Shown here one piece after another: positions 3,875-32,000 of a stretch of DNA of 32,000 bases. The notes beneath the pieces are model-generated. The model had not been told where the DNA came from. It did not search any database and saw only the letters and a list, made by a program, of their open reading frames with translations. Numbering within the stretch: the stretch's first letter is position 1; every line of letters begins with the position of its first letter. Both the position numbers and the translations under genes were made by a program. This DNA comes from Haloferax volcanii DS2 (GTDB taxonomy: Archaea; Halobacteriota; Halobacteria; Halobacteriales; Haloferacaceae), in contig NC_013967.1 in the NCBI RefSeq assembly GCF_000025685.1, positions 2,815,758 through 2,847,757 on the forward strand. The letters are read 5' to 3'.

Positions 3875-5239
3875 ATGAAACTCTTCGGTTCCAGCGGCAC
3901 CCGCGGCGTGGTGGGTGAGAGCCTCACCCCGGAGTTCGTCCTCCGCGTCGCCAAGGCCGCCGGCACGGTCTGGAACACCGGCCGGGTCGCCATCGCACGG
4001 GACACCCGAACCACGGGCGAGATGTTCGTCAACGCCGCCGAGTCCGGGCTGGCGAGCGTCGGCGTCGACGTGGACGACCTCGGCGTCGTCCCCACCCCCG
4101 CGGCGGTCCGCTACTGCGAGAATCAGGCCGTTCCGGGCGTCGTCATCACGGCCTCGCACAACCCCCCGGAGTTCAACGGCGTCAAACTCGTCGGCGACGA
4201 CGGCGTCGAACTCGCCGTCGAGGAGCTAGAGCGCATCGAAGACCACATCCTCGCCGAGGAGTTCGACGTGACCGAGTGGGACGCCGTCGGGAGCGTCCGG
4301 TCGGTCGAGACCGCGAACGACGACTACCACGAGGACCTCCTCGCCAACGTCGACCGCGAGAAAATCGCTGCCGCGAACCTCACGGTCGCGCTCGACCCCG
4401 GCCACGGCGCCGGGTCGCTCGTCACGCCCGACTTCCTCCGCGAACTCGGCTGCGAGGTCCGCACGGTCAACGCCCAGCCCGACGGCCACTTCCCCGGTCG
4501 CCAGTCCGAGCCGGTCCCCGAGAACCTCCGCGACCTCGAACGCCTCGTCCGCGCGACCGACGCCGACGTGGGAATCGCCCACGACGGCGACGCCGACCGG
4601 GCCGTCTTCGTGAACGAGCGCGGCGAGTGCATCTCCGGCGAGGCGTCGCTGGCCGCCCTCGCGGCCGCCGCCCTCGAACCGGGCGACGCGACCGTCTCCG
4701 CCGTGAACGTCTCCCAGCGCCTCGTCGACGTCTGCGAGGAGGTCGGTGCCGACCTCGAACTCACGCCCATCGGCGCGACGAACCTCATCACCCGCATCCG
4801 CGAGCTCTGGCGCGAGGGTCGGAACGTCCCCGTCGCGGGCGAGGGGAACGGAGGAGTGTTCTACCCCAACTACCGCCTCGTCCGCGACGGCGCGTACATC
4901 GCGGCGAAGTTCCTCGAACTCGTCGCCGAGCGCTCCGCGAGCGAACTCGTCGCGCCCTACGAGGACTACTACAACGTCCGCATCAACCTCGAATACGACG
5001 AGGAAGCCGAGTTGACGGCGATGCTCAACGCCGCCGCCGACTACGCCGAATCGGCCGACGCGACCCCGAACACGACCGACGGCTACCGCCTCGACTACGG
5101 CGACGCGTGGGTGCTCGTCCGCCCCTCCGGGACCGAGCCGAAAGTCCGCGTCTACGCCGAAGGCCGCTCCGAGGAGCGCGCGACCGAACTCGCCGAAGAC
5201 GCCGCCGACGCGCTCCGAAGCGCGGTCGCGACGCTGTAA
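3875..5239 (+). CDS. glmM: Phosphohexomutase family enzyme (phosphoglucosamine mutase / phosphomannomutase type)
   Basis: 454 aa. Phosphoserine loop TASHNPPEFNG, metal loop HDGDADR, phosphate loop RPSGTEPKVRVY. The exact sugar specificity cannot be read from sequence. Confidence 0.88.
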   Translation: MKLFGSSGTRGVVGESLTPEFVLRVAKAAGTVWNTGRVAIARDTRTTGEMFVNAAESGLASVGVDVDDLGVVPTPAAVRYCENQAVPGVVITASHNPPEFNGVKLVGDDGVELAVEELERIEDHILAEEFDVTEWDAVGSVRSVETANDDYHEDLLANVDREKIAAANLTVALDPGHGAGSLVTPDFLRELGCEVRTVNAQPDGHFPGRQSEPVPENLRDLERLVRATDADVGIAHDGDADRAVFVNERGECISGEASLAALAAAALEPGDATVSAVNVSQRLVDVCEEVGADLELTPIGATNLITRIRELWREGRNVPVAGEGNGGVFYPNYRLVRDGAYIAAKFLELVAERSASELVAPYEDYYNVRINLEYDEEAELTAMLNAAADYAESADATPNTTDGYRLDYGDAWVLVRPSGTEPKVRVYAEGRSEERATELAEDAADALRSAVATL

Positions 5240-5326
5240 TCGGTCTGAACAAGGAGACGTTCATCGAGACACCCCGCAACACACCAAACGATCTTCAGAT
5301 GCTTCGTTGATACTTCCAGACCCAGA

Positions 5327-5338
5327 GCCGAATTCGGC
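5327..5338. promoter_or_regulatory. 12-bp perfect palindrome GCCGAATTCGGC (copy 1 of 2)
   Basis: Read directly. A TTTAT motif lies 21 nt to its right. An identical copy is at 9817..9828. Confidence 0.35.
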
Positions 5339-5495
5339 GTTACAGGCCCCAAAGACCCATTTATCCGCATTTGAGCGTCTTTACTAAGATTTAAGCATTT
5401 TGCCGATCAACGATTTAACCGAGAAGTGACGCTGGAGAGATAATGATCCCTCTCTGCAGGGGCTGAGTTCTCTTTCGGCGGTGGATTTTACACAC

Positions 5496-6191
5496 TTAGA
5501 GTCGGTGGTCCCGAACTACGTTACTAGCGGCGGCACAGTCCCCTTTCCGCTGGTTTCGAGGCCACGAGTAGGCCGCTAAGTCGGCTATTTGTAGCCCCGG
5601 TACGGACCTGCTATCTTGGGTTGTGAATGTAGTAGGGACACCAATCTCCTCGTGAGAATCGAAGCATCCACCGACGACGTCTGCGGGAGCGTCCCACACG
5701 GTATCGTCCAGTACAACGTTGATTTCGTCGATCACGTCGAGGTTCATCAACCCTTCTTGAAAGAGCGGGCTGATAGCCGAGATAAGACTCATCGAGCGTA
5801 TCATTTGGCCGTTCGAAAAGCTACCGGATGTTCTCCCGTCAAAAGCCCCTCTTGTTATGTCGGGAAGAGTCGTGTACGCCGAATATCGGATTGGTTGGCC
5901 GGTGGTCCAGACACGAGGCGTTTCGATGGTCTTGTCGCTGTGAAGCTTCGGGACCATGGCCTGCATCAAATCGTCGACGTAGCTCGGGTGAAGTTTCGAG
6001 GACTTGATTTCCGAAAAGTCGTCATCGTCTCTTAGGCGGCGGGCTTGTTCCAGCAAGAATCCCTTGGTTGAAGCGAGGACCTCGTACTCACTAGACCGCT
6101 TGGAAACACACCAACAACCGACAATCGAGAACCCCGTCCCTGCATCGGCGTTCCCGCTTTCGTCGACGAAAAAATAGAGAATACGAGTCAT
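5496..6191 (-). CDS. DUF3800-family protein
   Basis: 231 aa. N-terminal ILYFFVDESGN (the D-E-S-G motif) and C-terminal GLQIADLAAY are the hallmark motifs of DUF3800 as I recall the family. Codon usage is atypical for this window (AAA, TTT, ATA, AAT are common). Confidence 0.85.
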   Translation of the reverse strand: MTRILYFFVDESGNADAGTGFSIVGCWCVSKRSSEYEVLASTKGFLLEQARRLRDDDDFSEIKSSKLHPSYVDDLMQAMVPKLHSDKTIETPRVWTTGQPIRYSAYTTLPDITRGAFDGRTSGSFSNGQMIRSMSLISAISPLFQEGLMNLDVIDEINVVLDDTVWDAPADVVGGCFDSHEEIGVPTTFTTQDSRSVPGLQIADLAAYSWPRNQRKGDCAAASNVVRDHRL

Positions 6192-6207
6192 TTGAAAGTG
6201 GTTGAAG

Positions 6208-6215
6208 TATTTAAT
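6208..6215 (-). promoter_or_regulatory. TATA-box-like element (ATTAAATA on the minus strand) for the DUF3800 gene
   Basis: About -17..-24 from the ATG at 6191. Confidence 0.4.
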
Positions 6216-6433
6216 ACGCTACCTCGACTAAAATGTGAATGGTTCCACCCGTCTTCTGTGCTGACTAACACGAGAGCGGCCATCTCGATCTCAGCGCAAA
6301 ACATCGATCTCCGCTAGTCCGTGCCGCTACTCCGCAAGAAAATCGAGACCGAGGTCGGCGACGAGACGTACCCGGCCGTCGTCATGGCGCGGACGCTAGA
6401 TTCGTAGCGATTCTACGCGACGTTCTCCGCCGC

Positions 6434-6685
6434 TCACAGACTAATCGCCGCGAACAAAAGCGTCAGCGCCCCGAACACCAGAAGCATGAAGCCGCGTTCG
6501 AGGTCGTCGCCGTCGAGGTCGTCGTCCGGCGGGTCCTCGCGGGTCGGGTCGAGGACGAACTCCGGGTCGTCCGAGCGGGCGACCCGACGGGCGGCCGCGG
6601 CGCTCTTGAGCAGTCGGCCGCCGAGGGCGAAACAGCTCAGCCCCACGACGATGGCGACCAGCGAAATCGGACTGACGTTCACCAT
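6434..6685 (-). CDS. Small hypothetical membrane protein (83 aa, two TM segments with an acidic loop)
   Basis: Track ORF with an ATG start. ISLVAIVVGLSCFALGG and FMLLVFGALTLLFAAISL flank an acidic loop. GC-rich third positions. Confidence 0.55.
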   Translation of the reverse strand: MVNVSPISLVAIVVGLSCFALGGRLLKSAAAARRVARSDDPEFVLDPTREDPPDDDLDGDDLERGFMLLVFGALTLLFAAISL

Positions 6686-15199: not shown

Positions 15200-17497
<2,298 letters not shown>

Positions 17498-25895: not shown

Positions 25896-28472
25896 TCAGC
25901 GGTACTCCGAGCCGACGACCTCGCGGATTCGCTCGGCGGTGACTTGGCCGACGCCGCGGACCTCCTTGAGGTCCTCCTCGTTGGCGGTCATGACCGCCTC
26001 GACGCTCCCGAACGCTTCGAGCAGCGTCCGCGCCGTGACCGGGCCGATGTCCGCGATGGCGGAGACGACGTACTCCTGTTGCTCGTCGAGCGTCTTCGCG
26101 CTCTTGCCGCCGTGGACGCTCACGGTGCGCTCGCGGTCCGTCTGCTCGCGGGTGGCGATGGTCGCCAGCAGCTCCGCGGTGTCGTCTTCGTCTTCGGTGA
26201 ACAGCACGCTCACGTTGAAGTCGACCGCGACCGACGACAGCGCCCCGCGAATCGCGCCGGGGTGGATGTTGCGCTCCTCGTAGAGCCCGCGCCCCTCGAT
26301 GACGAGCAGCGGCCGGGCGTAGTGGCGCGTGAGGTCCGCTATCTGCTCGAATATCGAGCGGTCGCCGCCCGTGAGCGTGTCGAGGAAGTCCGAGACGCTC
26401 TTTCGCTCGACCGCGACGCGGTCCGAGAGGACGTAGTCACCGACCGCGAGCGTCTCCAGTCGGGTCGTCAGGTCCTCGCGCTTCGAGAGGGTGCGGGCGA
26501 TGTTGGAGTCGAGTTCGCGCTGGTCGACGACGATTTCGACGGTGTCCTCGTCGTCGGTGCCCGCCGCGGCGACGGTGGCCGAGTCGTCCACCTCGTCTCC
26601 TTCTGCGTCCGACGCCGGGTCGTCGCCCGAGTCGGCCGGGTCGGCGTCCTCGCCGTGGCTGTCGTCGCCGTCGTCCGCCCGCGCCAACGCCTCGTCCGAG
26701 GGACCGAAGTCGGCGAGGCCGGACTGCCCGTCCGAGTCGGTCGCCGCCGCGGTCGCGGTCCGGCCGTTCGAGGCGGATGACGCGGTAGCCGACGCCCCGT
26801 TTGCATCGCCCTCGCTCGCGACGTCAACCCCCTCGTTTCGGGTGGAACTCCCCGCGCTACCGGCTGAACTGGCGTCGTCTCCCGCGAACGCCGAGAGGTC
26901 GCGTTGGGAGGGGTCGAGTTCGGCTTCGAGGTCGTCGGCCGCGCCCTTGAGGTCTCGAAGCTCGTTTTGCATCGTCTTCTCGCGGCGGCGCGATATCCAG
27001 AAGTACGCCTCGTCGCGGGTGTCCTCCGCGAGGAGGACGACCACGCGACCGTCGGCCTGCCGGCCGGTCCGCCCCTTCCGCTGGATGGACCGGATGGCGG
27101 TCGGCACGGGTTCGAAAAAGAGCACGAGGTCGACCTCGGGCACGTCGAGACCCTCCTCCGCGACGGATGTCGAGACGAGTACCTCGAACTCGCCGTTTCG
27201 GAACTTGTCGAGGGTCTCCTGCTGTTCGTTCTGGGTCATCCCGTCGGAGCCTTCGCGGTCGCCCTGCCCGACGAACCGCCGGACCGAGAAGCTCTCCGAG
27301 AGGAACTCCGTCAGCGCCTCGGCCGTGTCGCGCGACTCGGTGAAGACGATGACGCGCTCGCCGTTCTGGATGCCGAGCGTCTCCGCGAGGAGGATGCGCG
27401 TCTTCCTGAACTTCGGGTGGAGGCCGTCGAACGACTCGGCTTTCCGCATCGCCTCGCGGACTTTCGGCTCGGCGACGAGTCGCTGGCTCGCCTTCGACGC
27501 GCCCGACGACCGGGCGGCGTTGCGCTGGCGCTCGAAGTACCGCCGGACCGACTCCACCGACTGGGTCTCGACGAGTTCGACCGCCCGGCGGAGCTTCATC
27601 ACCTCCGCGTGCGTCGACATCCCCTTGTAGCCCTCCGACTTGTCGGCGTTCATCAGCCGCTGGAGCTCCGCGCGCATCCGGTTGAGCTTCTTCTGGGAGA
27701 TATCGGGCTTCGTCGATTTGGTGACGCCCAACTGCTTGAGCTTCTCCAGTCGGTCGGTGATGACCTCGTTGAGCGCGTCGCGTATCTCCAGAATCTCGTC
27801 GGGGAGTTGGATGCGGTTCCACTCCACGTCCGTGTCGTGGGTGTACTCCGACACGTCGGCGTCCTCCTCGGTCATCACCTCCACGTCGACGATGCCGAGG
27901 TTCTCACAGACTTCGAGGATGGCCTCCTCGTCGCCGCCGGGCGAGGCGCTCATCCCCGTGACGAGCGGGTTCTCGGCGGCGGCGTGGTAGCGCTCTGCGA
28001 TGTAGACGTAGGCGTAGTCGCCGCTCGCGCGGTGGCACTCGTCGAAGGTGAGGTGCGTCACGTCCCGAAGCGAGATGCGGTTGCCGATGAGGTCGTTTTC
28101 GATGACCTGCGGCGTGGCGATAACGATTTGGGCCTCCTGCCAGAGTTCGGCCCGGTCGTCGGGCCGAACGTCGCCGGTGAAGACGACGATTTCGTCGTCC
28201 GGGACGGTCAGCGCCTCGCGGTAGAAATCGGCGTGCTGCTGGACCAGCGGCTTCGTCGGCGCGAGAAACAGCGACTTTCCGCCCACGTCGTGGAGGCGCT
28301 GGGCGGTGACGAGCAGGCTGACGGTCGTCTTCCCGAGGCCGGTGGGGAGACAGACCAGCGTGTGGCCGTCGCGCGCGGTCCCGGCGAGGCGAATCTGATA
28401 GAGCCGCCGCTCGATGAACGACGGCGCGAGTAGCGGGTGGTCCACGTACGCAACGTCCTCGGAGGCCGACAT
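25896..28472 (-). CDS. hef: Hef helicase/nuclease (XPF/FANCM-like: SF2 helicase + ERCC4 nuclease + HhH2)
   Basis: 858 aa from the internal ATG at 28472. Walker A CLPTGLGKT, DExH FDECHRA, motif VI QRKGRTGR, an acidic disordered linker, ERCC4 motif GDYVLSDRVAVERKSVSDF and a C-terminal HhH pair. CTTATC TATA-like motif at -25..-30. Confidence 0.93.
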   Translation of the reverse strand: MSASEDVAYVDHPLLAPSFIERRLYQIRLAGTARDGHTLVCLPTGLGKTTVSLLVTAQRLHDVGGKSLFLAPTKPLVQQHADFYREALTVPDDEIVVFTGDVRPDDRAELWQEAQIVIATPQVIENDLIGNRISLRDVTHLTFDECHRASGDYAYVYIAERYHAAAENPLVTGMSASPGGDEEAILEVCENLGIVDVEVMTEEDADVSEYTHDTDVEWNRIQLPDEILEIRDALNEVITDRLEKLKQLGVTKSTKPDISQKKLNRMRAELQRLMNADKSEGYKGMSTHAEVMKLRRAVELVETQSVESVRRYFERQRNAARSSGASKASQRLVAEPKVREAMRKAESFDGLHPKFRKTRILLAETLGIQNGERVIVFTESRDTAEALTEFLSESFSVRRFVGQGDREGSDGMTQNEQQETLDKFRNGEFEVLVSTSVAEEGLDVPEVDLVLFFEPVPTAIRSIQRKGRTGRQADGRVVVLLAEDTRDEAYFWISRRREKTMQNELRDLKGAADDLEAELDPSQRDLSAFAGDDASSAGSAGSSTRNEGVDVASEGDANGASATASSASNGRTATAAATDSDGQSGLADFGPSDEALARADDGDDSHGEDADPADSGDDPASDAEGDEVDDSATVAAAGTDDEDTVEIVVDQRELDSNIARTLSKREDLTTRLETLAVGDYVLSDRVAVERKSVSDFLDTLTGGDRSIFEQIADLTRHYARPLLVIEGRGLYEERNIHPGAIRGALSSVAVDFNVSVLFTEDEDDTAELLATIATREQTDRERTVSVHGGKSAKTLDEQQEYVVSAIADIGPVTARTLLEAFGSVEAVMTANEEDLKEVRGVGQVTAERIREVVGSEYR

Positions 28473-28557
28473 CGGTGACGATTGCTCGCCCTTGCCGATA
28501 AGGGTTCGCAGAGCGGGGTGAAAGTAAAGCGTCCGCCGGGCCTCGCCGCGGCGGTCG

Positions 28558-28671
28558 TTACCCCGTGCTGTCAGCGGTATCGAGGTCGGGGTCGTCTGGT
28601 CGCGCGGTCGGGAGCGACGCTCCGAGGAGCGACGCCCACTCGGCGACCTTTTCGTTGTGCGGATTGGACAT
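28558..28671 (-). CDS. Candidate micro-protein (37 aa, acidic) upstream of hef
   Basis: Below the ORF-track cutoff. MSNPHNEKVAEWASLLGASLPTARPDDPDLDTADSTG*. 30/36 G/C at third positions by my count. TTATATA motif about 35-41 nt upstream. T-rich tract (CTTTACTTTC) 27-40 nt after the stop. Confidence 0.35.
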   Translation of the reverse strand: MSNPHNEKVAEWASLLGASLPTARPDDPDLDTADSTG

Positions 28672-28766
28672 AGCGCTTCCCCAAGGAGATATACTCTCAA
28701 CTATCGTATATAACGGTTATGCCGATTCGACGGATGGACTCGCGCGTACGTGGCCGGACGGTCGGC

Positions 28767-28789
28767 GTTCCACCGGAAACGACGGGGTG
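28767..28789 (+). promoter_or_regulatory. Outlying ORB-like element GTTCCACCGGAAACGACGGGGTG
   Basis: 21/23 identical to the ORB at 31367..31345 (GTTCCACCTGAAACGAAGGGGTG). Lies in the 345-bp oapC/hef intergenic region. A partial copy CGGGGTGAAAGT is at 28514..28525. Confidence 0.55.
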
Positions 28790-28817
28790 AAAAGTCGGGC
28801 GGGCGCGGAAAGCGCGC

Positions 28818-29810
28818 TCAGTCCTCGCGGTTGCCGGGGCCCCACGTGTCCGGAACTTCGATGACGTACCGGCCGTCCTCGCGGAGCGAGATGATGTACT
28901 CGCTTCGGTCGTACAGCTCCATGAGGTTGAGTTCGTACTGCCCGGGGTTGACGATTTTGATGCTCTCGAACTGGTCGTTGAGCTCCTCGCGAAGCTGGTC
29001 CAGGTCGGGCCGCTCGTCGGACGAAGGCTCGATGACCGTGCCGTCCGCGTCCGTGGGCGCGTCGGCGGGCTGACCGGCCGGCCCCTCGGAGGCGGGCGGC
29101 GCTTCGGACGGCGTCTCAGCCGCCGAACCGCGTCGGTTCGCGTCGGCGGCGGCGAGTTCCTCCGGCGTGACGACATCGCTCCGAGCGCTCTTCTGGGAGT
29201 TGTCTTCGTCCGTCTCGCGCGCGTTGATTTTACCGGGGTCGCGGTCCGGAGGCGAAGCCGAGTCCGCCGAGCTACTGGGTCGCTCCGTCGCGTCACCTCG
29301 GAATTTGTTCCGCGACGCTGAAGGTTCCTGCGGGTCTGCTCCCGGAGACTCGCCGGGCGCGGACGGCCACTCGCCCCAACCGCGAGGTTTGTCTTCGGGT
29401 TCGCCACCCGCGTCGGCCGCGTCGGACGCGTCGCTCGACCCGGCCGCACCGGTCGACGACGGTTCGCTTCGGGTCGAACCGGCGGTGTCACCGGTCTCGG
29501 ATCGCTGTGGGGCGTTCGCGTCCGCATTCGCGTCCGCCCAGTCGCTGACGGTCATCGACTCCTCGTCGGTCGAGTCGGGATAGGACTGCTGCTGTGCGCG
29601 GTCTCGGACGGCGTCGGCCGCCGAAGAGCTCAGGTCCCGCGTTCCGGCGCCGCCCGTCGACGGCGTGTCGTCGCTTGCGCTCGCGGGAGCGCTCCCGCTC
29701 GACGCGGGCTTGAACTGAAACTTGTTGCCGCCGCAGTTCGGGCACCCCGAGAGCATCTCCTTCGAACCGTCGGGGAACACCTTACCGCACGTGGTGCATT
29801 GATGTGGCAT
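28818..29810 (-). CDS. oapC: Origin-associated protein OapC type: N-terminal zinc ribbon, long low-complexity middle, conserved C-terminal domain
   Basis: MPHQCTTCGKVFPDGSKEMLSGCPNCGGNKF, then an S/A/D/P-rich middle, then C-terminal LDQLREELNDQFESIKIVNPGQYELNLMELY. Position is third in the operon next to the origin. Confidence 0.75.
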   Translation of the reverse strand: MPHQCTTCGKVFPDGSKEMLSGCPNCGGNKFQFKPASSGSAPASASDDTPSTGGAGTRDLSSSAADAVRDRAQQQSYPDSTDEESMTVSDWADANADANAPQRSETGDTAGSTRSEPSSTGAAGSSDASDAADAGGEPEDKPRGWGEWPSAPGESPGADPQEPSASRNKFRGDATERPSSSADSASPPDRDPGKINARETDEDNSQKSARSDVVTPEELAAADANRRGSAAETPSEAPPASEGPAGQPADAPTDADGTVIEPSSDERPDLDQLREELNDQFESIKIVNPGQYELNLMELYDRSEYIISLREDGRYVIEVPDTWGPGNRED

Positions 29811-29858
29811 TGGTGGATGTTGGCGCCGGATGACGCGTGAGGGCGTTCGTGGGGCCCC

Positions 29859-30251
29859 CTACTTTCGCGAGACGAGCGCGCTGATGAGATTCTCGTCCTT
29901 GTGAAGCGTCTGAATCTGGTTCGCGGGACCGATGACCGTGAGCTTCTGGGTCGACTGTCGGCCCATGAGCCGGTCGAGGAAGCTCTGGTCTGCGGTCTGC
30001 GAACGCGGATACGTCTCGATTTCGATACCGTTGAACTCGTCGGGGCTTATCTCGGCCATCGTGACTTCGATAAGCTTCGACTCCTCGTCGGGCGAGAGGC
30101 CTTCCTCCAGGATGACGATGTTCCCGTCACGGACGCCGTCGAGGATGAGTCGAATCTTCTCCATGCTGGTGAGGTTTGCCATCCGATTCCCGCTGAAGAG
30201 GTCTATCTGGACCCCGTCGGAGCCGTTGTCGGAGGCGGTTGCTTCAGGCAT
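29859..30251 (-). CDS. oapB: Origin-associated protein OapB type (DUF2073-like, 130 aa)
   Basis: Track ORF starting 6 nt after the upstream GTPase gene's stop. Family assignment rests on position and my recollection of the Haloferax oap operon, not on a motif I can verify. Confidence 0.7.
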   Translation of the reverse strand: MPEATASDNGSDGVQIDLFSGNRMANLTSMEKIRLILDGVRDGNIVILEEGLSPDEESKLIEVTMAEISPDEFNGIEIETYPRSQTADQSFLDRLMGRQSTQKLTVIGPANQIQTLHKDENLISALVSRK

Positions 30252-30257
30252 GGTGGA

Positions 30258-30899
30258 TCACGCGAAGTACTTCGCGATTTTGGCGTACACTTCGTCCATG
30301 TTCTCCCCTTCGAGCGCTGACAACTCGACTGTTTCGTGCTGTGGGTACGCGTTCGCGATGCGCTCGACGTTCGAGTCTTCGAGGTCGATCTTGTTCGCGA
30401 AGATGAGCACGGGCAGGTCCTGGCTCTCGATGATACCGATGAGCATCGTGTTGACCTGCGATATCGGGTCCTTCGTGCTGTCGAGCACGTAGATGACGCC
30501 GTCGACGTCCTCGCGGAGCCAGTGCATGGCCTCGGCGACGCCCTCGGTCGCCTCGCGGGACCGGCGAACGGCGTCGTCTTTCTCCATGTCGTGTTCGAGG
30601 AACTCCTTGTAATCGACCTTCGTCGTAACCCCCGGGGTGTCGACGATGTCGATAGTGACTTTCTTGCCGTTCCGCTCGATTTCGACGTTCTCTTTCCGCC
30701 TGGCGCGGCGAGTCTCGTGAGGGATGTGGCTCTCGGGACCGACGGCGTCACCGGTCCAATCACGGGCGATACGATTTGCGAGAGTCGTCTTCCCGGCGTT
30801 GGGCGGGCCATATATACCGATCCGCTTCGGCTCGCTCTCCGAAAAGAGCCGGTCGACGACTCGTGAGATGCTGTCTCTTAAATCTGTGAGCAGTCCCAT
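30258..30899 (-). CDS. oapA: Small GTP-binding protein (origin-associated protein OapA type)
   Basis: P-loop GPPNAGKTT (G1), DTPG (G3), NKID (G4 NKxD). Internal ATG at 30899 (MGLLTDLRD) preferred. The track start at 30953 is GTG and lies upstream of the TSS predicted from the CTTAAG motif at 30967..30972. Confidence 0.85.
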   Translation of the reverse strand: MGLLTDLRDSISRVVDRLFSESEPKRIGIYGPPNAGKTTLANRIARDWTGDAVGPESHIPHETRRARRKENVEIERNGKKVTIDIVDTPGVTTKVDYKEFLEHDMEKDDAVRRSREATEGVAEAMHWLREDVDGVIYVLDSTKDPISQVNTMLIGIIESQDLPVLIFANKIDLEDSNVERIANAYPQHETVELSALEGENMDEVYAKIAKYFA

Positions 30900-31337
30900 C
30901 CTGGGCCTCCCGCACCTCCCGAACGCGTCGTGGAGGGCGTATGGAGGTATCACCCAACCGGACTCACTTAAGCACTACGTCAGACACCAGTCACGTGGTC
31001 GACAAAACGACAGAAAAGAACGTCGGTGACGGCGGCCAGTCCGATTGGGCGAACTCGAACGACGAAATCGACAGGCCGGCGTTCGAGCGGGACGTACCGA
31101 GCGATAGAAAGGCGGCCGCTCGGCGGCGATACGCGTTCATTTAGTTGTTACTTTGGGCGTACACGTGCGTAACTCGAACGGATACCGAGCATGACTCCGG
31201 AGTACCGCAGTGTCTCTCGAACACGACGAGCGTTCTGAAGCCGCCGCGCCGACCTCCCCACAGTCTGTCCTCGCCGCAGTAGCCGTGATTCTGATATAGT
31301 GACACGTGCCGCGGGGACGTGAACCACTCGCAAGGCA

Positions 31338-31367
31338 ACACCCCCACCCCTTCGTTTCAGGTGGAAC
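31338..31367 (-). repeat. Origin recognition box (ORB) with G-string: GTTCCACCTGAAACGAAGGGGTGGGGGTGT
   Basis: Read directly and anchored to the track ORF 31137..31478 frame. Inverted relative to the copy at 31540..31569. Confidence 0.8.
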
Positions 31368-31371
31368 GGGC

Positions 31372-31390
31372 CGAAGGGGTGGGTGGGGGG
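31372..31390 (+). repeat. ORB half-site / G-string CGAAGGGGTGGGTGGGGGG
   Basis: Its first 12 nt (31372..31383) form a perfect 12-bp inverted repeat with 31343..31354 (CCCACCCCTTCG), separated by 17 nt. Confidence 0.6.
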
Positions 31391-31539
31391 AGACCGCTAG
31401 ACGGCGGTCGGATGTTAATTGAATAGAGAGGGTGAGTAATATTATCCATTTTCTCTCTACTACGGGTTTGATATGCAAATATCTGTGATAAAACCACCGC
31501 TATACAAAGACTACCGAACCCCCTCCCCTCCTGTTCGCG
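31391..31539. other. AT-rich duplex unwinding element (DUE) candidate
   Basis: 31411..31500 is 32/90 G+C by hand count, versus about two thirds for the window. It is bounded by inverted ORBs and has no credible ORF. Confidence 0.7.
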
Positions 31540-31569
31540 GCTCCACCTGAAACGAAGGGGTGTGGGGGA
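31540..31569 (+). repeat. Origin recognition box (ORB) with G-string: GCTCCACCTGAAACGAAGGGGTGTGGGGGA
   Basis: The 21-nt core TCCACCTGAAACGAAGGGGTG is identical to the minus-strand copy at 31365..31345. Confidence 0.8.
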
Positions 31570-31692
31570 ACCGAGACGCAGGGGTTTCCCGTCGAACTGG
31601 AGAACGACAGTTAATTACAAGAGAAATCGAGACGTTACACAAGGTCAATACTCGCTCTACTACCCGAATTCGTCCAAATCGTTATTCGGACA

Positions 31693-31715
31693 TCTCCACG
31701 CGAAACGAAGGGGTT
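31693..31715 (+). repeat. Origin recognition box (ORB), third copy: TCTCCACGCGAAACGAAGGGGTT
   Basis: Shares TCCAC..GAAACGAAGGGGT with the other copies. Preceded by a second AT-rich block (about 31603..31692). Confidence 0.7.
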
Positions 31716-32000
31716 ACTCCCATCGAATTTTCTGTCGGGGACACATCGCACGTCGAGTTCCACTCCAACGACGCCCGTTGGTCAGTCACCGCCACCGCTC
31801 AGTTACTGTCGGTACTCGGTCTCCGACACCCATCCGGCTACCCACCATCGTTCAGTCACGCTGCCGCGCAGTTGCCGGCGCAACTCGTTACCCACCACTC
31901 GGCCGACTCGACCTGTTTCGACTCGAGCCGAGCCGACTTTCCGACGCGGCTCGATTCGCCCGTTCGCCATCTGGTTCGTCTCCCAGCGACCGCCGGTACT

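What the first reader, a model, noticed from the sequence alone, without database searches (positions are those of the whole stretch)
31338..31777. Chromosomal replication origin: inverted G-string ORBs flanking a ~36% GC unwinding element
Seen: GTTCCACCTGAAACGAAGGGGTGGGGGTGT lies on the minus strand (31367..31338) and GCTCCACCTGAAACGAAGGGGTGTGGGGGA on the plus strand (31540..31569). They share an identical 21-nt core and are arranged as an inverted pair with their G-rich tails pointing outward. Between them, 31411..31500 is 32/90 G+C by my count. A third plus-strand copy (TCTCCACGCGAAACGAAGGGGTT, 31693..31715) follows a second AT-rich block. A half-site at 31372..31390 forms a 12-bp inverted repeat with the first ORB, and a weak copy (GTTCCACTCCAACGACG) is at 31757. 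The two AT-rich blocks also share short motifs (GTTAATT..AGAG; CTCTACTAC at about 31454 and 31653). No credible ORF covers 31140..32000. Established: archaeal origins consist of inverted Orc1/Cdc6 origin recognition boxes around a DUE, haloarchaeal ORBs carry a G-string, and the main haloarchaeal origin lies between the oap cluster and orc1. Inference: this is oriC of the replicon, and an orc1/cdc6 gene should begin shortly beyond coordinate 32000.
Basis: partly seen in the sequence, partly recalled or inferred. Interest (0 to 1): 0.7.

Follow-up and report, generated by a model that had tools for sequence, protein, structure and literature searches.

The report
Known Haloferax volcanii origin oriC1
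This is the main chromosomal replication origin (oriC1) of the salt-loving archaeon Haloferax volcanii, correctly recognised from sequence alone but already mapped and dissected experimentally since 2007.

Summary
Two perfect 21-nt origin recognition box (ORB) cores (31345-31365 minus, 31542-31562 plus) face outward around the least stable 100 bp of duplex in 40.9 kb (31414-31513, 34% GC). A third ORB follows a second AT-rich block.

An identical contig shows orc1/cdc6 starting 258 bp past the window end, preceded by a fourth ORB. The window is the last 32 kb of the H. volcanii DS2 chromosome record:
- its malate dehydrogenase equals PDB 4bgu;
- published oriC1 deletion primers map at 31179-31205 and 31269-31285;
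- a published transcription-start table quotes the sequence just beyond the window and puts the orc1 ATG at chromosome position 258.

Norais et al. 2007 described this 1,360-bp intergenic region (two DUEs, Halo-ORBs with extended G-strings) and showed autonomous replication and initiation in or near the DUEs. It is the most active of three chromosomal origins and is dispensable.

Novelty: already known. The side observations may be new: ORB-like sites at repair genes and a conserved box upstream of oapA.

The parts
30258..30899 (-). oapA (= arvA, HVO_3014), a small GTPase gene. It is the left boundary gene of the origin-containing intergenic region and is transcribed away from the origin.
   Evidence: Pfam MMR_HSR1 4.9e-14. 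The identical protein was called in 8 assemblies next to OapB and OapC. Named HVO_3014/OapA/ArvA in PMC10927574.
30900..32000 (.). The left 1,101 bp of the 1,358-bp oapA-orc1 intergenic region. The last 257 bp, including a fourth ORB and the orc1 ATG, lie beyond the window.
   Evidence: Mapping to L006. [quoted passage not shown]
31338..31367 (-). ORB1: a Halo-ORB (mini-ORB plus G-string plus extended halophile G-string). The tail points left, away from the DUE.
   Evidence: Exact 21-mer core at 31345-31365 with 0 expected by chance. Near-invariant in 5 Haloferax species (two substitutions in H. mucosum). In H. hispanica oriC1 the equivalent ORB and its G-string are essential (PMC3936714).
31372..31390 (+). 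Left arm of the inner G-rich inverted repeat (CGAAGGGGTGGGTGGGGGG).
   Evidence: 12-bp perfect inverted repeat with ORB1 (I5). Conserved in Haloferax. Inner C/G-runs flank 24 of 48 ORBs in other genera against a 2% background, p = 4e-28. Described as an enhancer of oriC1 in H. hispanica (PMC3936714).
31392..31409 (.). Palindrome GACCGC-TAGACG-GCGGTC at the left edge of the DUE. Its function is unknown.
   Evidence: Near-invariant in 5 Haloferax species (the last three bases vary) within an otherwise divergent spacer. Forms a hairpin in single-strand folds.
31411..31513 (.). Primary duplex unwinding element (DUE1).
   Evidence: 32/90 G+C over 31411-31500. 31414-31513 is the least stable 100 bp in 40.9 kb, z = 5.3. 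Initiation was mapped within or near the DUEs by RIP mapping (PMC1868953).
31519..31531 (-). Right arm of the inner G-rich inverted repeat. It reads CCCCCTCCCCTCC on the + strand.
   Evidence: Part of the 48-nt, 75% complementary inverted repeat 31341-31388 / 31519-31566 (I1). Conserved in Haloferax. Matches motif IV CCCCCTCCCC of H. hispanica (PMC3936714).
31540..31569 (+). ORB2: a Halo-ORB whose tail points right, away from the DUE.
   Evidence: Exact 21-mer core at 31542-31562. Conserved in Haloferax. All 24 close haloarchaeal pairs in other genera have this same '-,+' outward arrangement, 182-337 bp apart.
31570..31605 (+). Conserved block directly after ORB2. It contains a degenerate ORB 3' half (CGAGACGCAGGGGTT, 31572-31586).
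   Evidence: Direct repeat D5. Conserved in 5 Haloferax species.
31595..31694 (.). Second AT-rich block (DUE2).
   Evidence: GC 0.42. Third least stable 100-bp stretch, z = 4.0. The literature describes two A/T-rich DUEs (PMC1868953).
31693..31715 (+). ORB3: has the core and a short G-string but no extended G-string.
   Evidence: No mismatch to TCCACNNGAAACGAAGGGGT. Conserved in 5 Haloferax species.
31757..31773 (+). Weak ORB-like copy (5' half only). Probably not functional.
   Evidence: Present in the sequence but not conserved outside close strains.
28769..28788 (+). Outlying ORB-like site, about 30 nt past the oapC stop and about 300 nt upstream of hef, with no extended G-string.
   Evidence: 1 mismatch to the core, against 0 expected for up to 3 mismatches. 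A counterpart lies 30-55 nt past the oapC stop in all five Haloferax loci examined, although OapC is only 45-57% identical between them.
26827..26846 (-). ORB-like site inside the hef coding sequence. It lies on the sense strand and encodes SSTRNEGV in the variable acidic linker.
   Evidence: 1 mismatch to the core. An exact core is present in the corresponding, otherwise diverged linker of H. elongans hef.

Best explanation
The region is oriC1, the orc1-adjacent and most active replication origin of the Haloferax volcanii main chromosome. The window is the last 32 kb of the linearised DS2 chromosome record.

Proposed mechanism:
1. Orc1/Cdc6, encoded 258 bp to the right of the window, binds the origin recognition boxes. 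Its winged-helix domain reads the mini-ORB (TCCACnnGAAAC) and its AAA+ domain contacts the G-string.
2. The two Halo-ORBs face away from each other. Two oppositely oriented Orc1 molecules therefore bracket the roughly 100-bp AT-rich unwinding element, and each loads one MCM hexamer there.
3. The extended outer G-strings are required for function, and the inner G-rich inverted repeat raises efficiency.
4. ORB3 lies beyond the second AT-rich block. ORB4 ends 8 nt before the orc1 ATG. Both are accessory Orc1 sites, and ORB4 is placed where bound Orc1 would repress its own gene.

What is shown and what is inferred:
- Shown here: the anatomy, orc1 adjacency, conservation, and identity with the published locus.
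- Shown in the literature for this locus: autonomous replication of the intergenic region alone, initiation in or near the DUEs, and the strongest replication-profile peak.
- Shown only in the H. hispanica orthologue: the requirement for both ORBs and both outer G-strings, and the enhancer role of the inner repeat.
- Inferred: Orc1 occupancy of each box in H. volcanii, and autoregulation through ORB4.
For: Identity with H. volcanii DS2:
- The MDH is 100% identical to PDB 4bgu. That this entry is the H. volcanii enzyme is from my own knowledge.
- L006 is 100% identical to the window over 4,001 bp.
- Published H. volcanii primers oriC1-BamHL and MHorc1R2 map at 31179-31205 and 31269-31285.
- The dRNA-seq supplement of PMC4983044 quotes, upstream of chromosome position 278 in HVO_0001, exactly the sequence found just past the window end. 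That places the ATG at chromosome position 258.
- The neighbours match the published description: Hef, UvrC, NAD-dependent ligase and the PolD small subunit (PMC1868953).

Anatomy:
- ORB cores are far beyond chance.
- The DUE is the stability minimum.
- orc1 is adjacent.
- No RNA family, tRNA or coding ORF lies in the spacer.

Comparative evidence:
- ORB1, ORB2, ORB3 and both inner G-strings are conserved islands in 5 Haloferax species.
- 24 of 24 close haloarchaeal ORB pairs in other genera are inverted with tails outward around a GC trough.
- 82 of 120 loci carrying the core have Orc1 within the held stretch.
- An ORB just upstream of the orc1 ATG recurs in many genera.

Experiments in the literature:
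- ARS activity of the 1.1-kb and 692-bp intergenic fragments without orc1 in cis, and RIP mapping (PMC1868953).
- Most active origin by marker frequency (PMC6063281; PMC7776575).
- ORB and G-string mutagenesis in H. hispanica oriC1 (PMC3936714).
Against: There is nothing against the identification itself. The qualifications are these:
- The origin is dispensable. H. volcanii deleted for all chromosomal origins is viable and grows 7.5% faster (PMC7776575). 'Origin' therefore describes what the element does in wild type, not a requirement.
- It is one of three chromosomal origins, not the sole oriC.
- I found no direct Orc1 footprint or ChIP for these particular boxes in the papers I read.
- The weak copy at 31757 is not conserved.
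- Only the left ORB module has significant hairpin potential (z = -3.7 and -3.1, against -0.3 and -0.6 for the right module). Cruciform extrusion is therefore not a general part of the mechanism.
Confidence: 0.97

Rival explanations
1. The repeats are copies of a dispersed generic element, such as a MITE-like or REP-like repeat, that happen to lie in an AT-rich spacer and have no role in replication.
For: Single copies of the core do occur away from orc1. Two ORB-like sites lie in or near hef in the window, and 14 haloarchaeal loci in the genome scan have neither orc1 nor oapA in the held stretch.
Against: 118 of 120 loci with the core are archaeal. 82 carry Orc1 and 7 more carry oapA within the held stretch of up to 8 kb. 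Paired copies are always inverted with tails outward around a GC trough (24 of 24). The extended G-string is found only on origin copies, and none of the non-origin copies has it. There are no terminal repeats, target duplications or transposase. The window holds only 5 sites with one mismatch or fewer in 32 kb, and 3 of them are in the intergenic region.
Confidence: 0.01
2. The boxes are primarily operator sites through which Orc1, or another factor, controls the divergent oapA and orc1 promoters. Replication initiation would be incidental.
For: ORB4 ends 8 nt before the orc1 ATG, and an equivalent box recurs in many genera. A mapped internal TSS at chromosome position 278 places ORB4 over the expected TATA/BRE position. 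The spacer also holds conserved promoter-like blocks for oapA and orc1.
Against: The intergenic fragment replicates autonomously without orc1 in cis, and nascent-strand transition points map in or near the DUEs (PMC1868953). ORB1 and ORB2 lie about 450 and 700 bp from the two start codons and bracket the stability minimum, not a promoter. Regulation through ORB4 is compatible with origin function rather than an alternative to it.
Confidence: 0.02
3. The region encodes a structured non-coding RNA, or a small protein, and the inverted repeats are RNA stems.
For: The ORB1 module can form a 12-bp-stem hairpin (z = -3.7). Some assemblies call small ORFs in the spacer.
Against: There is no Rfam match at gathering threshold in the window and none better than E = 0.76 in the spacer. 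The small ORFs have no Pfam hit. Those ORFs are not conserved beyond the first ~100 nt next to oapA. The arms are 130 nt apart and flank AT-rich DNA. The right module does not fold better than shuffles.
Confidence: 0.005

Closest known systems
Haloferax volcanii oriC1 (Norais et al. 2007, PLoS Genet 3:e77; PMC1868953)
   Same: It is the same locus. [quoted passage not shown] The neighbours are DP1, Hef, UvrC and LigN. Published primers and published flanking sequence map onto the window and its extension.
   Different: Nothing differs in substance. My map adds the two hef-linked ORB-like sites and places the fourth ORB 8 nt before the orc1 ATG. I could not see their figure, so I cannot say whether those are among their numbered repeats.
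Haloarcula hispanica oriC1-cdc6A (Wu et al. 2014, NAR 42:2282; PMC3936714)
   Same: It is the orthologous origin with the same architecture. Two inverted ORBs carry outer extended G-strings around an AT-rich region, and a G-rich inverted repeat lies directly inside the ORBs (GGGGAGGGGG / CCCCCTCCCC there; GGGGTGGGTGGGGGG / CCCCCTCCCCTCC here).
   Different: Genus, spacing and exact sequence of the inner repeat differ. The mutational evidence (ORBs and outer G-strings essential, inner repeat an enhancer) exists for H. hispanica, and I found none for H. volcanii. In H. hispanica at least one chromosomal origin is required, whereas in H. volcanii all can be deleted.
Sulfolobus solfataricus oriC1 and Pyrococcus abyssi oriC (the classic archaeal ORB / mini-ORB origins)
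   Same: Both have Orc1/Cdc6 boxes with the consensus GTTCCAGTGGAAAC-AAA----GGGGG in inverted orientation around a DUE, next to the initiator gene. The H. volcanii repeats are 89% identical to that consensus (PMC1868953). The core also turns up next to orc1 in methanogens, Thermoplasmatota, DPANN and other archaea.
   Different: Those origins lack the extended halophile G-string and the inner G-rich repeat.
Escherichia coli oriC and datA (DnaA boxes, DUE, and an initiator-titrating locus)
   Same: The logic is the same. Initiator boxes flank an unwinding element, and outlying box clusters can titrate the initiator, as proposed for oriC2D in H. hispanica.
   Different: The initiator is unrelated (DnaA versus Orc1/Cdc6), as are the box sequences and the helicase-loading route. 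This is analogy only.

Membership tests
Archaeal Orc1/Cdc6-dependent replication origin (haloarchaeal oriC1 family) | Multiple origin recognition boxes matching the ORB / mini-ORB consensus | tested here: met
   Four sites with 0-1 mismatch to TCCACNNGAAACGAAGGGGT lie in the intergenic region, against 0 expected.
Archaeal Orc1/Cdc6-dependent replication origin (haloarchaeal oriC1 family) | Two ORBs in inverted orientation flanking an AT-rich duplex unwinding element | tested here: met
   ORB1(-) and ORB2(+) are 196 bp apart start to start. The inner region holds the least stable 100 bp of 40.9 kb. The same arrangement is seen in 24 of 24 close pairs in other genera.
Archaeal Orc1/Cdc6-dependent replication origin (haloarchaeal oriC1 family) | An orc1/cdc6 initiator gene directly adjacent | tested here: met
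   A 564-aa protein with AAA+, Cdc6 lid and winged-helix domains starts 258 bp past the window end in the 100%-identical contig L006.
Archaeal Orc1/Cdc6-dependent replication origin (haloarchaeal oriC1 family) | Halophile-specific extended G-string at the outer end of the DUE-flanking ORBs | tested here: met
   GGGGTGGGGGTGT follows ORB1 and GGGGTGTGGGGGA follows ORB2. Positions +1 to +7 after the core are 52-82% G in 126 haloarchaeal ORBs.
Archaeal Orc1/Cdc6-dependent replication origin (haloarchaeal oriC1 family) | [quoted passage not shown] 2014) | tested here: met
   Present at 31372-31390(+) and 31519-31531(-). Enriched at 24 of 48 inner flanks against a 2% background.
Archaeal Orc1/Cdc6-dependent replication origin (haloarchaeal oriC1 family) | Conserved oriC1 synteny: oapC-oapB-oapA | origin | orc1, with the PolD small subunit beyond | tested here: met
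   Pfam hits for OapB, OapC and the GTPase. orc1 and the DNA_pol_E_B/Metallophos gene are in L001-L008. oapA and orc1 flank the ORBs in most haloarchaeal loci.
Archaeal Orc1/Cdc6-dependent replication origin (haloarchaeal oriC1 family) | Autonomous replication (ARS) activity of the intergenic fragment | not testable with these tools
   Reported for this locus. The 1.1-kb fragment (pTA441) and the 692-bp fragment (pCN11) replicate without orc1 in cis (PMC1868953).
Archaeal Orc1/Cdc6-dependent replication origin (haloarchaeal oriC1 family) | Replication initiates there in vivo (nascent-strand mapping or a replication-depth peak) | not testable with these tools
   Reported. RIP-mapping transition points lie within or near the DUEs (PMC1868953). 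oriC1 is the most active origin in marker-frequency profiles (PMC6063281; PMC7776575).
Archaeal Orc1/Cdc6-dependent replication origin (haloarchaeal oriC1 family) | Direct binding of the cognate Orc1 to the boxes | not testable with these tools
   I found no such result for H. volcanii Orc1 in the papers I read. It is inferred from other archaea. S. solfataricus Cdc6-1 recognises Halobacterium NRC-1 oriC1 ORBs, as cited in PMC3528665.
Dispersed repeat or mobile element | Many copies scattered in the genome without a fixed gene neighbour | tested here: not met
   There are only 5 sites with one mismatch or fewer in the 32-kb window. In the genome scan, 89 of 120 loci carry orc1 or oapA beside the match.

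The most novel reading that the evidence does not exclude
Beyond the origin proper, single ORB cores that lack the extended G-string are placed next to DNA-repair genes.

In this window one lies about 300 nt upstream of hef (28769-28788) and one inside the variable linker of hef (26827-26846). Both are retained in other Haloferax species within sequence that has otherwise diverged.

In other haloarchaeal genera, the non-origin copies found by the genome scan lie beside Hel308 (twice), an XPD/Rad3-type helicase, UvrB and Hef. That is 5 to 7 of 14 such loci.

The reading not excluded is that Orc1, or one of the 16 Orc paralogues, also binds these sites. It could then couple repair-gene expression to initiator availability, as a euryarchaeal counterpart of the Sulfolobus Orc1-2 damage regulon. 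Alternatively the sites could act as initiator-titrating sites, like datA or H. hispanica oriC2D.

The sample is small and comes from a capped scan. In Haloferax, repair genes cluster near oriC1 anyway, so linkage rather than function could explain part of the pattern.
Probability: 0.2. Interest if true: 0.5.

Novelty: already known. Interest (0 to 1): 0.08.

Why it matters
As a discovery it does not matter. This origin has been cloned, mapped, deleted and profiled since 2007, and its orthologue has been dissected base by base.

It is useful as a calibration point. A reader working from raw sequence alone located the origin correctly, gave the right boxes, orientation, G-strings and unwinding element, and predicted the unseen orc1 gene to within 258 bp.

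The locus itself remains biologically important. H. volcanii tolerates loss of all its origins, which makes oriC1 central to the open question of why origins are kept at all.

The side observations could give small new handles on two things:
- how the initiator is connected to genome maintenance (ORB-like sites at repair genes);
- how the neighbouring vesicle-formation operon is controlled (a 20-nt box conserved upstream of oapA/arvA across genera).

Tried and rejected
- **Structured RNA in the spacer.** Rfam at gathering threshold on the whole window and at E <= 1 on the intergenic region gave nothing meaningful. The only hit was mir-598 at E = 0.76. There are no tRNAs.
- **Small proteins in the spacer.** The 113-aa, 67-aa and 55-aa ORFs have no Pfam hit. 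Footprinting shows no conservation consistent with coding beyond the first ~100 nt next to oapA.
- **Cruciform or hairpin extrusion as a general feature of the ORB modules.** Only the left module folds better than shuffles, so I dropped this.
- **A covarying hairpin in the oapA leader.** By eye the arms differ between genera while pairing is kept. However, whole-leader folding energies are not better than shuffles (mean z = -0.48, 52 sequences). Variable loop lengths made an alignment-based covariation test unreliable. I report the conserved box only and leave the hairpin as a suggestion.
- **The 65-nt invariant block upstream of orc1 (window-equivalent about 32096-32160).** BLAST finds it only in other Haloferax species. 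It is genus-specific and remains unexplained.
- **The third published primer, MHorc1F2.** It did not match L006 at up to 3 mismatches without gaps. By eye it differs by an engineered site that changes the length, so this counts neither for nor against.
- **The weak ORB copy at 31757.** It is not conserved, so I reject it as a functional box.
Full report
**Observation**

- ORB1 (reverse complement of 31338-31367) and ORB2 (31540-31569) share the exact 21-mer TCCACCTGAAACGAAGGGGTG at 31345-31365(-) and 31542-31562(+). None was expected in 100 dinucleotide-preserving shuffles.
- The pair is inverted with the G-rich tails pointing outward.
- A nearest-neighbour stability profile covered the window plus 8.9 kb of extension. 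It puts 31414-31513 as the least stable 100 bp of all (z = 5.3) and the second AT-rich block, 31595-31694, third.
- The third box (31695-31714) matches the degenerate core TCCACNNGAAACGAAGGGGT without mismatch.
- The 12-bp perfect inverted repeat between ORB1 and the 'half-site', and the short shared motifs of the two AT blocks, are confirmed.
- The weak copy at 31757 exists, but it matches only the 5' half of a box and is not conserved in other Haloferax species.

**Surroundings**

Left of the non-coding region lie, in order (Pfam):
- oapA, a small GTPase (30258-30899, minus strand);
- oapB (29859-30251);
- oapC (28818-29810);
- hef, a helicase/ERCC4 nuclease (25896-28472);
- a universal stress protein gene and a p27-type zinc-ribbon gene;
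- malate dehydrogenase;
- uvrC;
- further left, an NAD-dependent DNA ligase (15200-17494).

The window ends inside the non-coding region. I looked up the OapA protein in public assemblies and obtained eight contigs with 10 kb on each side. One of them, L006, is 100% identical to window 28000-32000. In it a 564-aa Orc1/Cdc6 gene starts at the position equivalent to 32258, which is 258 bp past the window end, and reads away from the origin. A fourth box (TCCACTTGAAACAAAGGGGT, equivalent to 32231-32250) ends 8 nt before its ATG. The full oapA-orc1 spacer is 1,358 bp.

**Identity**

Four lines of evidence place the window in H. volcanii DS2.
1. The malate dehydrogenase is identical over all 303 residues to PDB entry 4bgu. 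From my own knowledge, that entry is the Haloferax volcanii enzyme.
2. Norais et al. 2007 describe the H. volcanii chromosomal origin oriC1 as two divergent genes including orc1. [quoted passage not shown] The genes for DP1, Hef, UvrC, an NAD-dependent ligase and Hel308 lie nearby. [quoted passage not shown]
3. Primers published for the delta-oriC1 delta-orc1 constructs map in the window. oriC1-BamHL lies at 31179-31205 with only its two engineered mismatches, and the 3' part of MHorc1R2 lies at 31269-31285.
4. The dRNA-seq supplement of Babski et al. 2016 lists a start site at chromosome position 278 in HVO_0001. It quotes 70 nt of upstream sequence that is exactly the L006 sequence just beyond the window. 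That places the orc1 ATG at chromosome position 258.

The window is therefore the last 32,000 bp of the linearised DS2 main chromosome record (2,847,757 bp; PMC6063281). That explains why orc1 falls just outside it.

**What is known experimentally**

- The 1.1-kb intergenic fragment and a 692-bp sub-fragment replicate autonomously without orc1 in cis.
- Replication initiation point mapping found leading/lagging transition points within or near the DUEs (PMC1868953).
- oriC1 is the most active of the three origins of the DS2 main chromosome in marker-frequency profiles (PMC6063281; PMC7776575).
- All chromosomal origins can be deleted. The resulting strain grows 7.5% faster and depends on RadA (PMC7776575).
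- In the orthologous oriC1 of Haloarcula hispanica, deleting either ORB or mutating either outer G-string abolishes function. [quoted passage not shown]

**Independent comparative tests**

- 118 loci are archaeal, and most are Halobacteria.
- 82 have an Orc1 hit inside the held stretch of up to 8 kb, and 7 more have oapA.
- All 24 close haloarchaeal pairs are inverted with tails outward. They are 182-337 bp apart (196 bp here). The inner GC is 0.51 against 0.64 for the locus, and the lowest 60-bp window averages 0.32.
- Positions after the core are 52-82% G.
- Inner C-runs flank 24 of 48 of these ORBs, against 2% of background windows (p = 4e-28).
- A same-strand box a few nucleotides before the orc1 ATG recurs in many genera.

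Alignment of the whole spacer from five Haloferax species gives clear conserved islands in an otherwise fast-diverging sequence. These are ORB1 plus the inner G-string, a palindrome GACCGCTAGACGGCGGTC (31392-31409), parts of the DUE, the inner C-string plus ORB2, a block right after ORB2, and ORB3.

**Mechanism**

The best-supported account is the standard one. Orc1 binds the boxes. The two outward-facing Halo-ORBs position two Orc1 molecules in opposite orientation around the unwinding element, and each loads one MCM hexamer (PMC7776575). The G-strings are contacted by the AAA+ domain (cited in PMC3936714). ORB4 sits over the promoter-proximal region of orc1, which suggests autoregulation; that step is my inference. 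Direct Orc1 occupancy of these boxes in H. volcanii is also inferred.

**Rivals**

- A dispersed generic repeat is excluded by the orc1 association and the fixed architecture.
- A purely transcriptional role is contradicted by the published ARS and initiation mapping.
- A structured RNA or small protein is not supported. There is no Rfam hit, no Pfam hit and no tRNA, and only one of the two modules folds better than shuffles.

**Verdict**

The element is already known in detail, and interest is low.

**Things seen in passing**

These may be new.
1. Single ORB cores without the extended G-string lie near hef in this window. In other genera they lie beside Hel308, an XPD-type helicase, UvrB and Hef.
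2. A 20-nt box, GTCTGACGTAGGCTTAAGTG, lies 68-128 nt upstream of the oapA/arvA start in 43 of the 120 loci, once per locus. The window copy is at 30965-30987 on the minus strand. This explains why the ~97 nt next to oapA are nearly invariant in Haloferax. OapA is the vesicle-forming GTPase ArvA (PMC10927574).
3. A 65-nt block upstream of orc1 is conserved only within Haloferax.

Noticed in passing
window 30965-30987 (-), within the nearly invariant block 30900-30996: A box GTCTGACGTAG(T)GCTTAAGTG lies about 70-90 nt upstream of the oapA/arvA ATG. It is often preceded by a TATA-like TTTATATA in other genera. It occurs in 43 of 120 scanned loci with at most 3 errors, once per locus, always 68-128 nt (median about 75) upstream of oapA. 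It is followed by a GC-rich hairpin-like segment and GGAGG before the ATG. The ~97 nt next to oapA are nearly invariant among five Haloferax species. The box may be an operator or promoter element, or part of the leader, of the vesicle-formation operon. Rfam has no match. Whole-leader folding is not better than shuffles (mean z = -0.48), so the hairpin is unproven.
   Followed up: partly
window 28769-28788 (+) and 26827-26846 (-); loci L024, L030, L062, L099, L107: ORB cores lacking the extended G-string lie about 300 nt upstream of hef and inside hef's variable linker. Both are retained in other Haloferax species despite strong divergence around them. In other genera, non-origin copies lie beside Hel308 (L024, L099), an XPD/Rad3-type helicase (L030, 25 nt upstream), UvrB (L062) and Hef (L107). 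Cgi121 and DUF7089/DUF7090 genes are also adjacent.
   Followed up: partly
L006 8740-8804 (window-equivalent about 32096-32160, beyond the window end): A ~65-nt block (GGAGAAGTAAG.TTTTTGTACCAACTGTTCGTTTGGTTCCTTTGCATCATCTGGAATCGCC) lies 100-160 nt upstream of the orc1 ATG. It is nearly invariant in five Haloferax species but was not found in other genera. It could be the orc1 promoter plus a long leader, or a small RNA. Its function is not resolved.
   Followed up: partly
window 31392-31409: A perfect 6-bp-arm palindrome GACCGC-TAGACG-GCGGTC lies between the inner G-string and the DUE. It is near-invariant in five Haloferax species, where only the last three bases vary. I did not see it described in the papers I read, and its binding partner or role is unknown.
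   Followed up: partly
window 28473-28730: About 250 nt upstream of the called hef start are highly conserved among four Haloferax loci. There are long invariant runs such as TTGGACATAGCGCTTCCCC and an AT-rich TATATAA-containing stretch. A 934-aa ORF from a TTG at 28700 and a 37-aa gene call in two assemblies overlap this stretch. It may be a long hef leader or an unannotated small gene.
   Followed up: no
L006 8620-8642 (chromosome positions 258-278): The only orc1-associated start site visible in the truncated published dRNA-seq table is an 'internal' TSS at chromosome position 278, which is 20 nt inside the annotated ORF. With ORB4 at 231-250, that would place the box over the TATA/BRE position of this start. 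The true orc1 start codon or leader may need re-examination.
   Followed up: no
window 5237-6436, ORF 5496-6191 (-): This is a low-GC island. It holds 100-bp windows at 38-41% GC that rank second and fourth for low duplex stability. It carries a 231-aa DUF3800 protein gene (Pfam 1.7e-06). It looks like horizontally acquired DNA between a phosphoglucomutase-family gene and small membrane-protein genes.
   Followed up: partly
loci L019, L023, L029, L031, L049, L051, L052, L065, L074, L109: The same 18-specified-base ORB core lies 75-150 nt from the start of the Orc1 alignment in methanogens, Methanomassiliicoccales, Woesearchaeota and other non-halophilic archaea. This shows how far the exact core sequence is conserved across the domain.
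   Followed up: no
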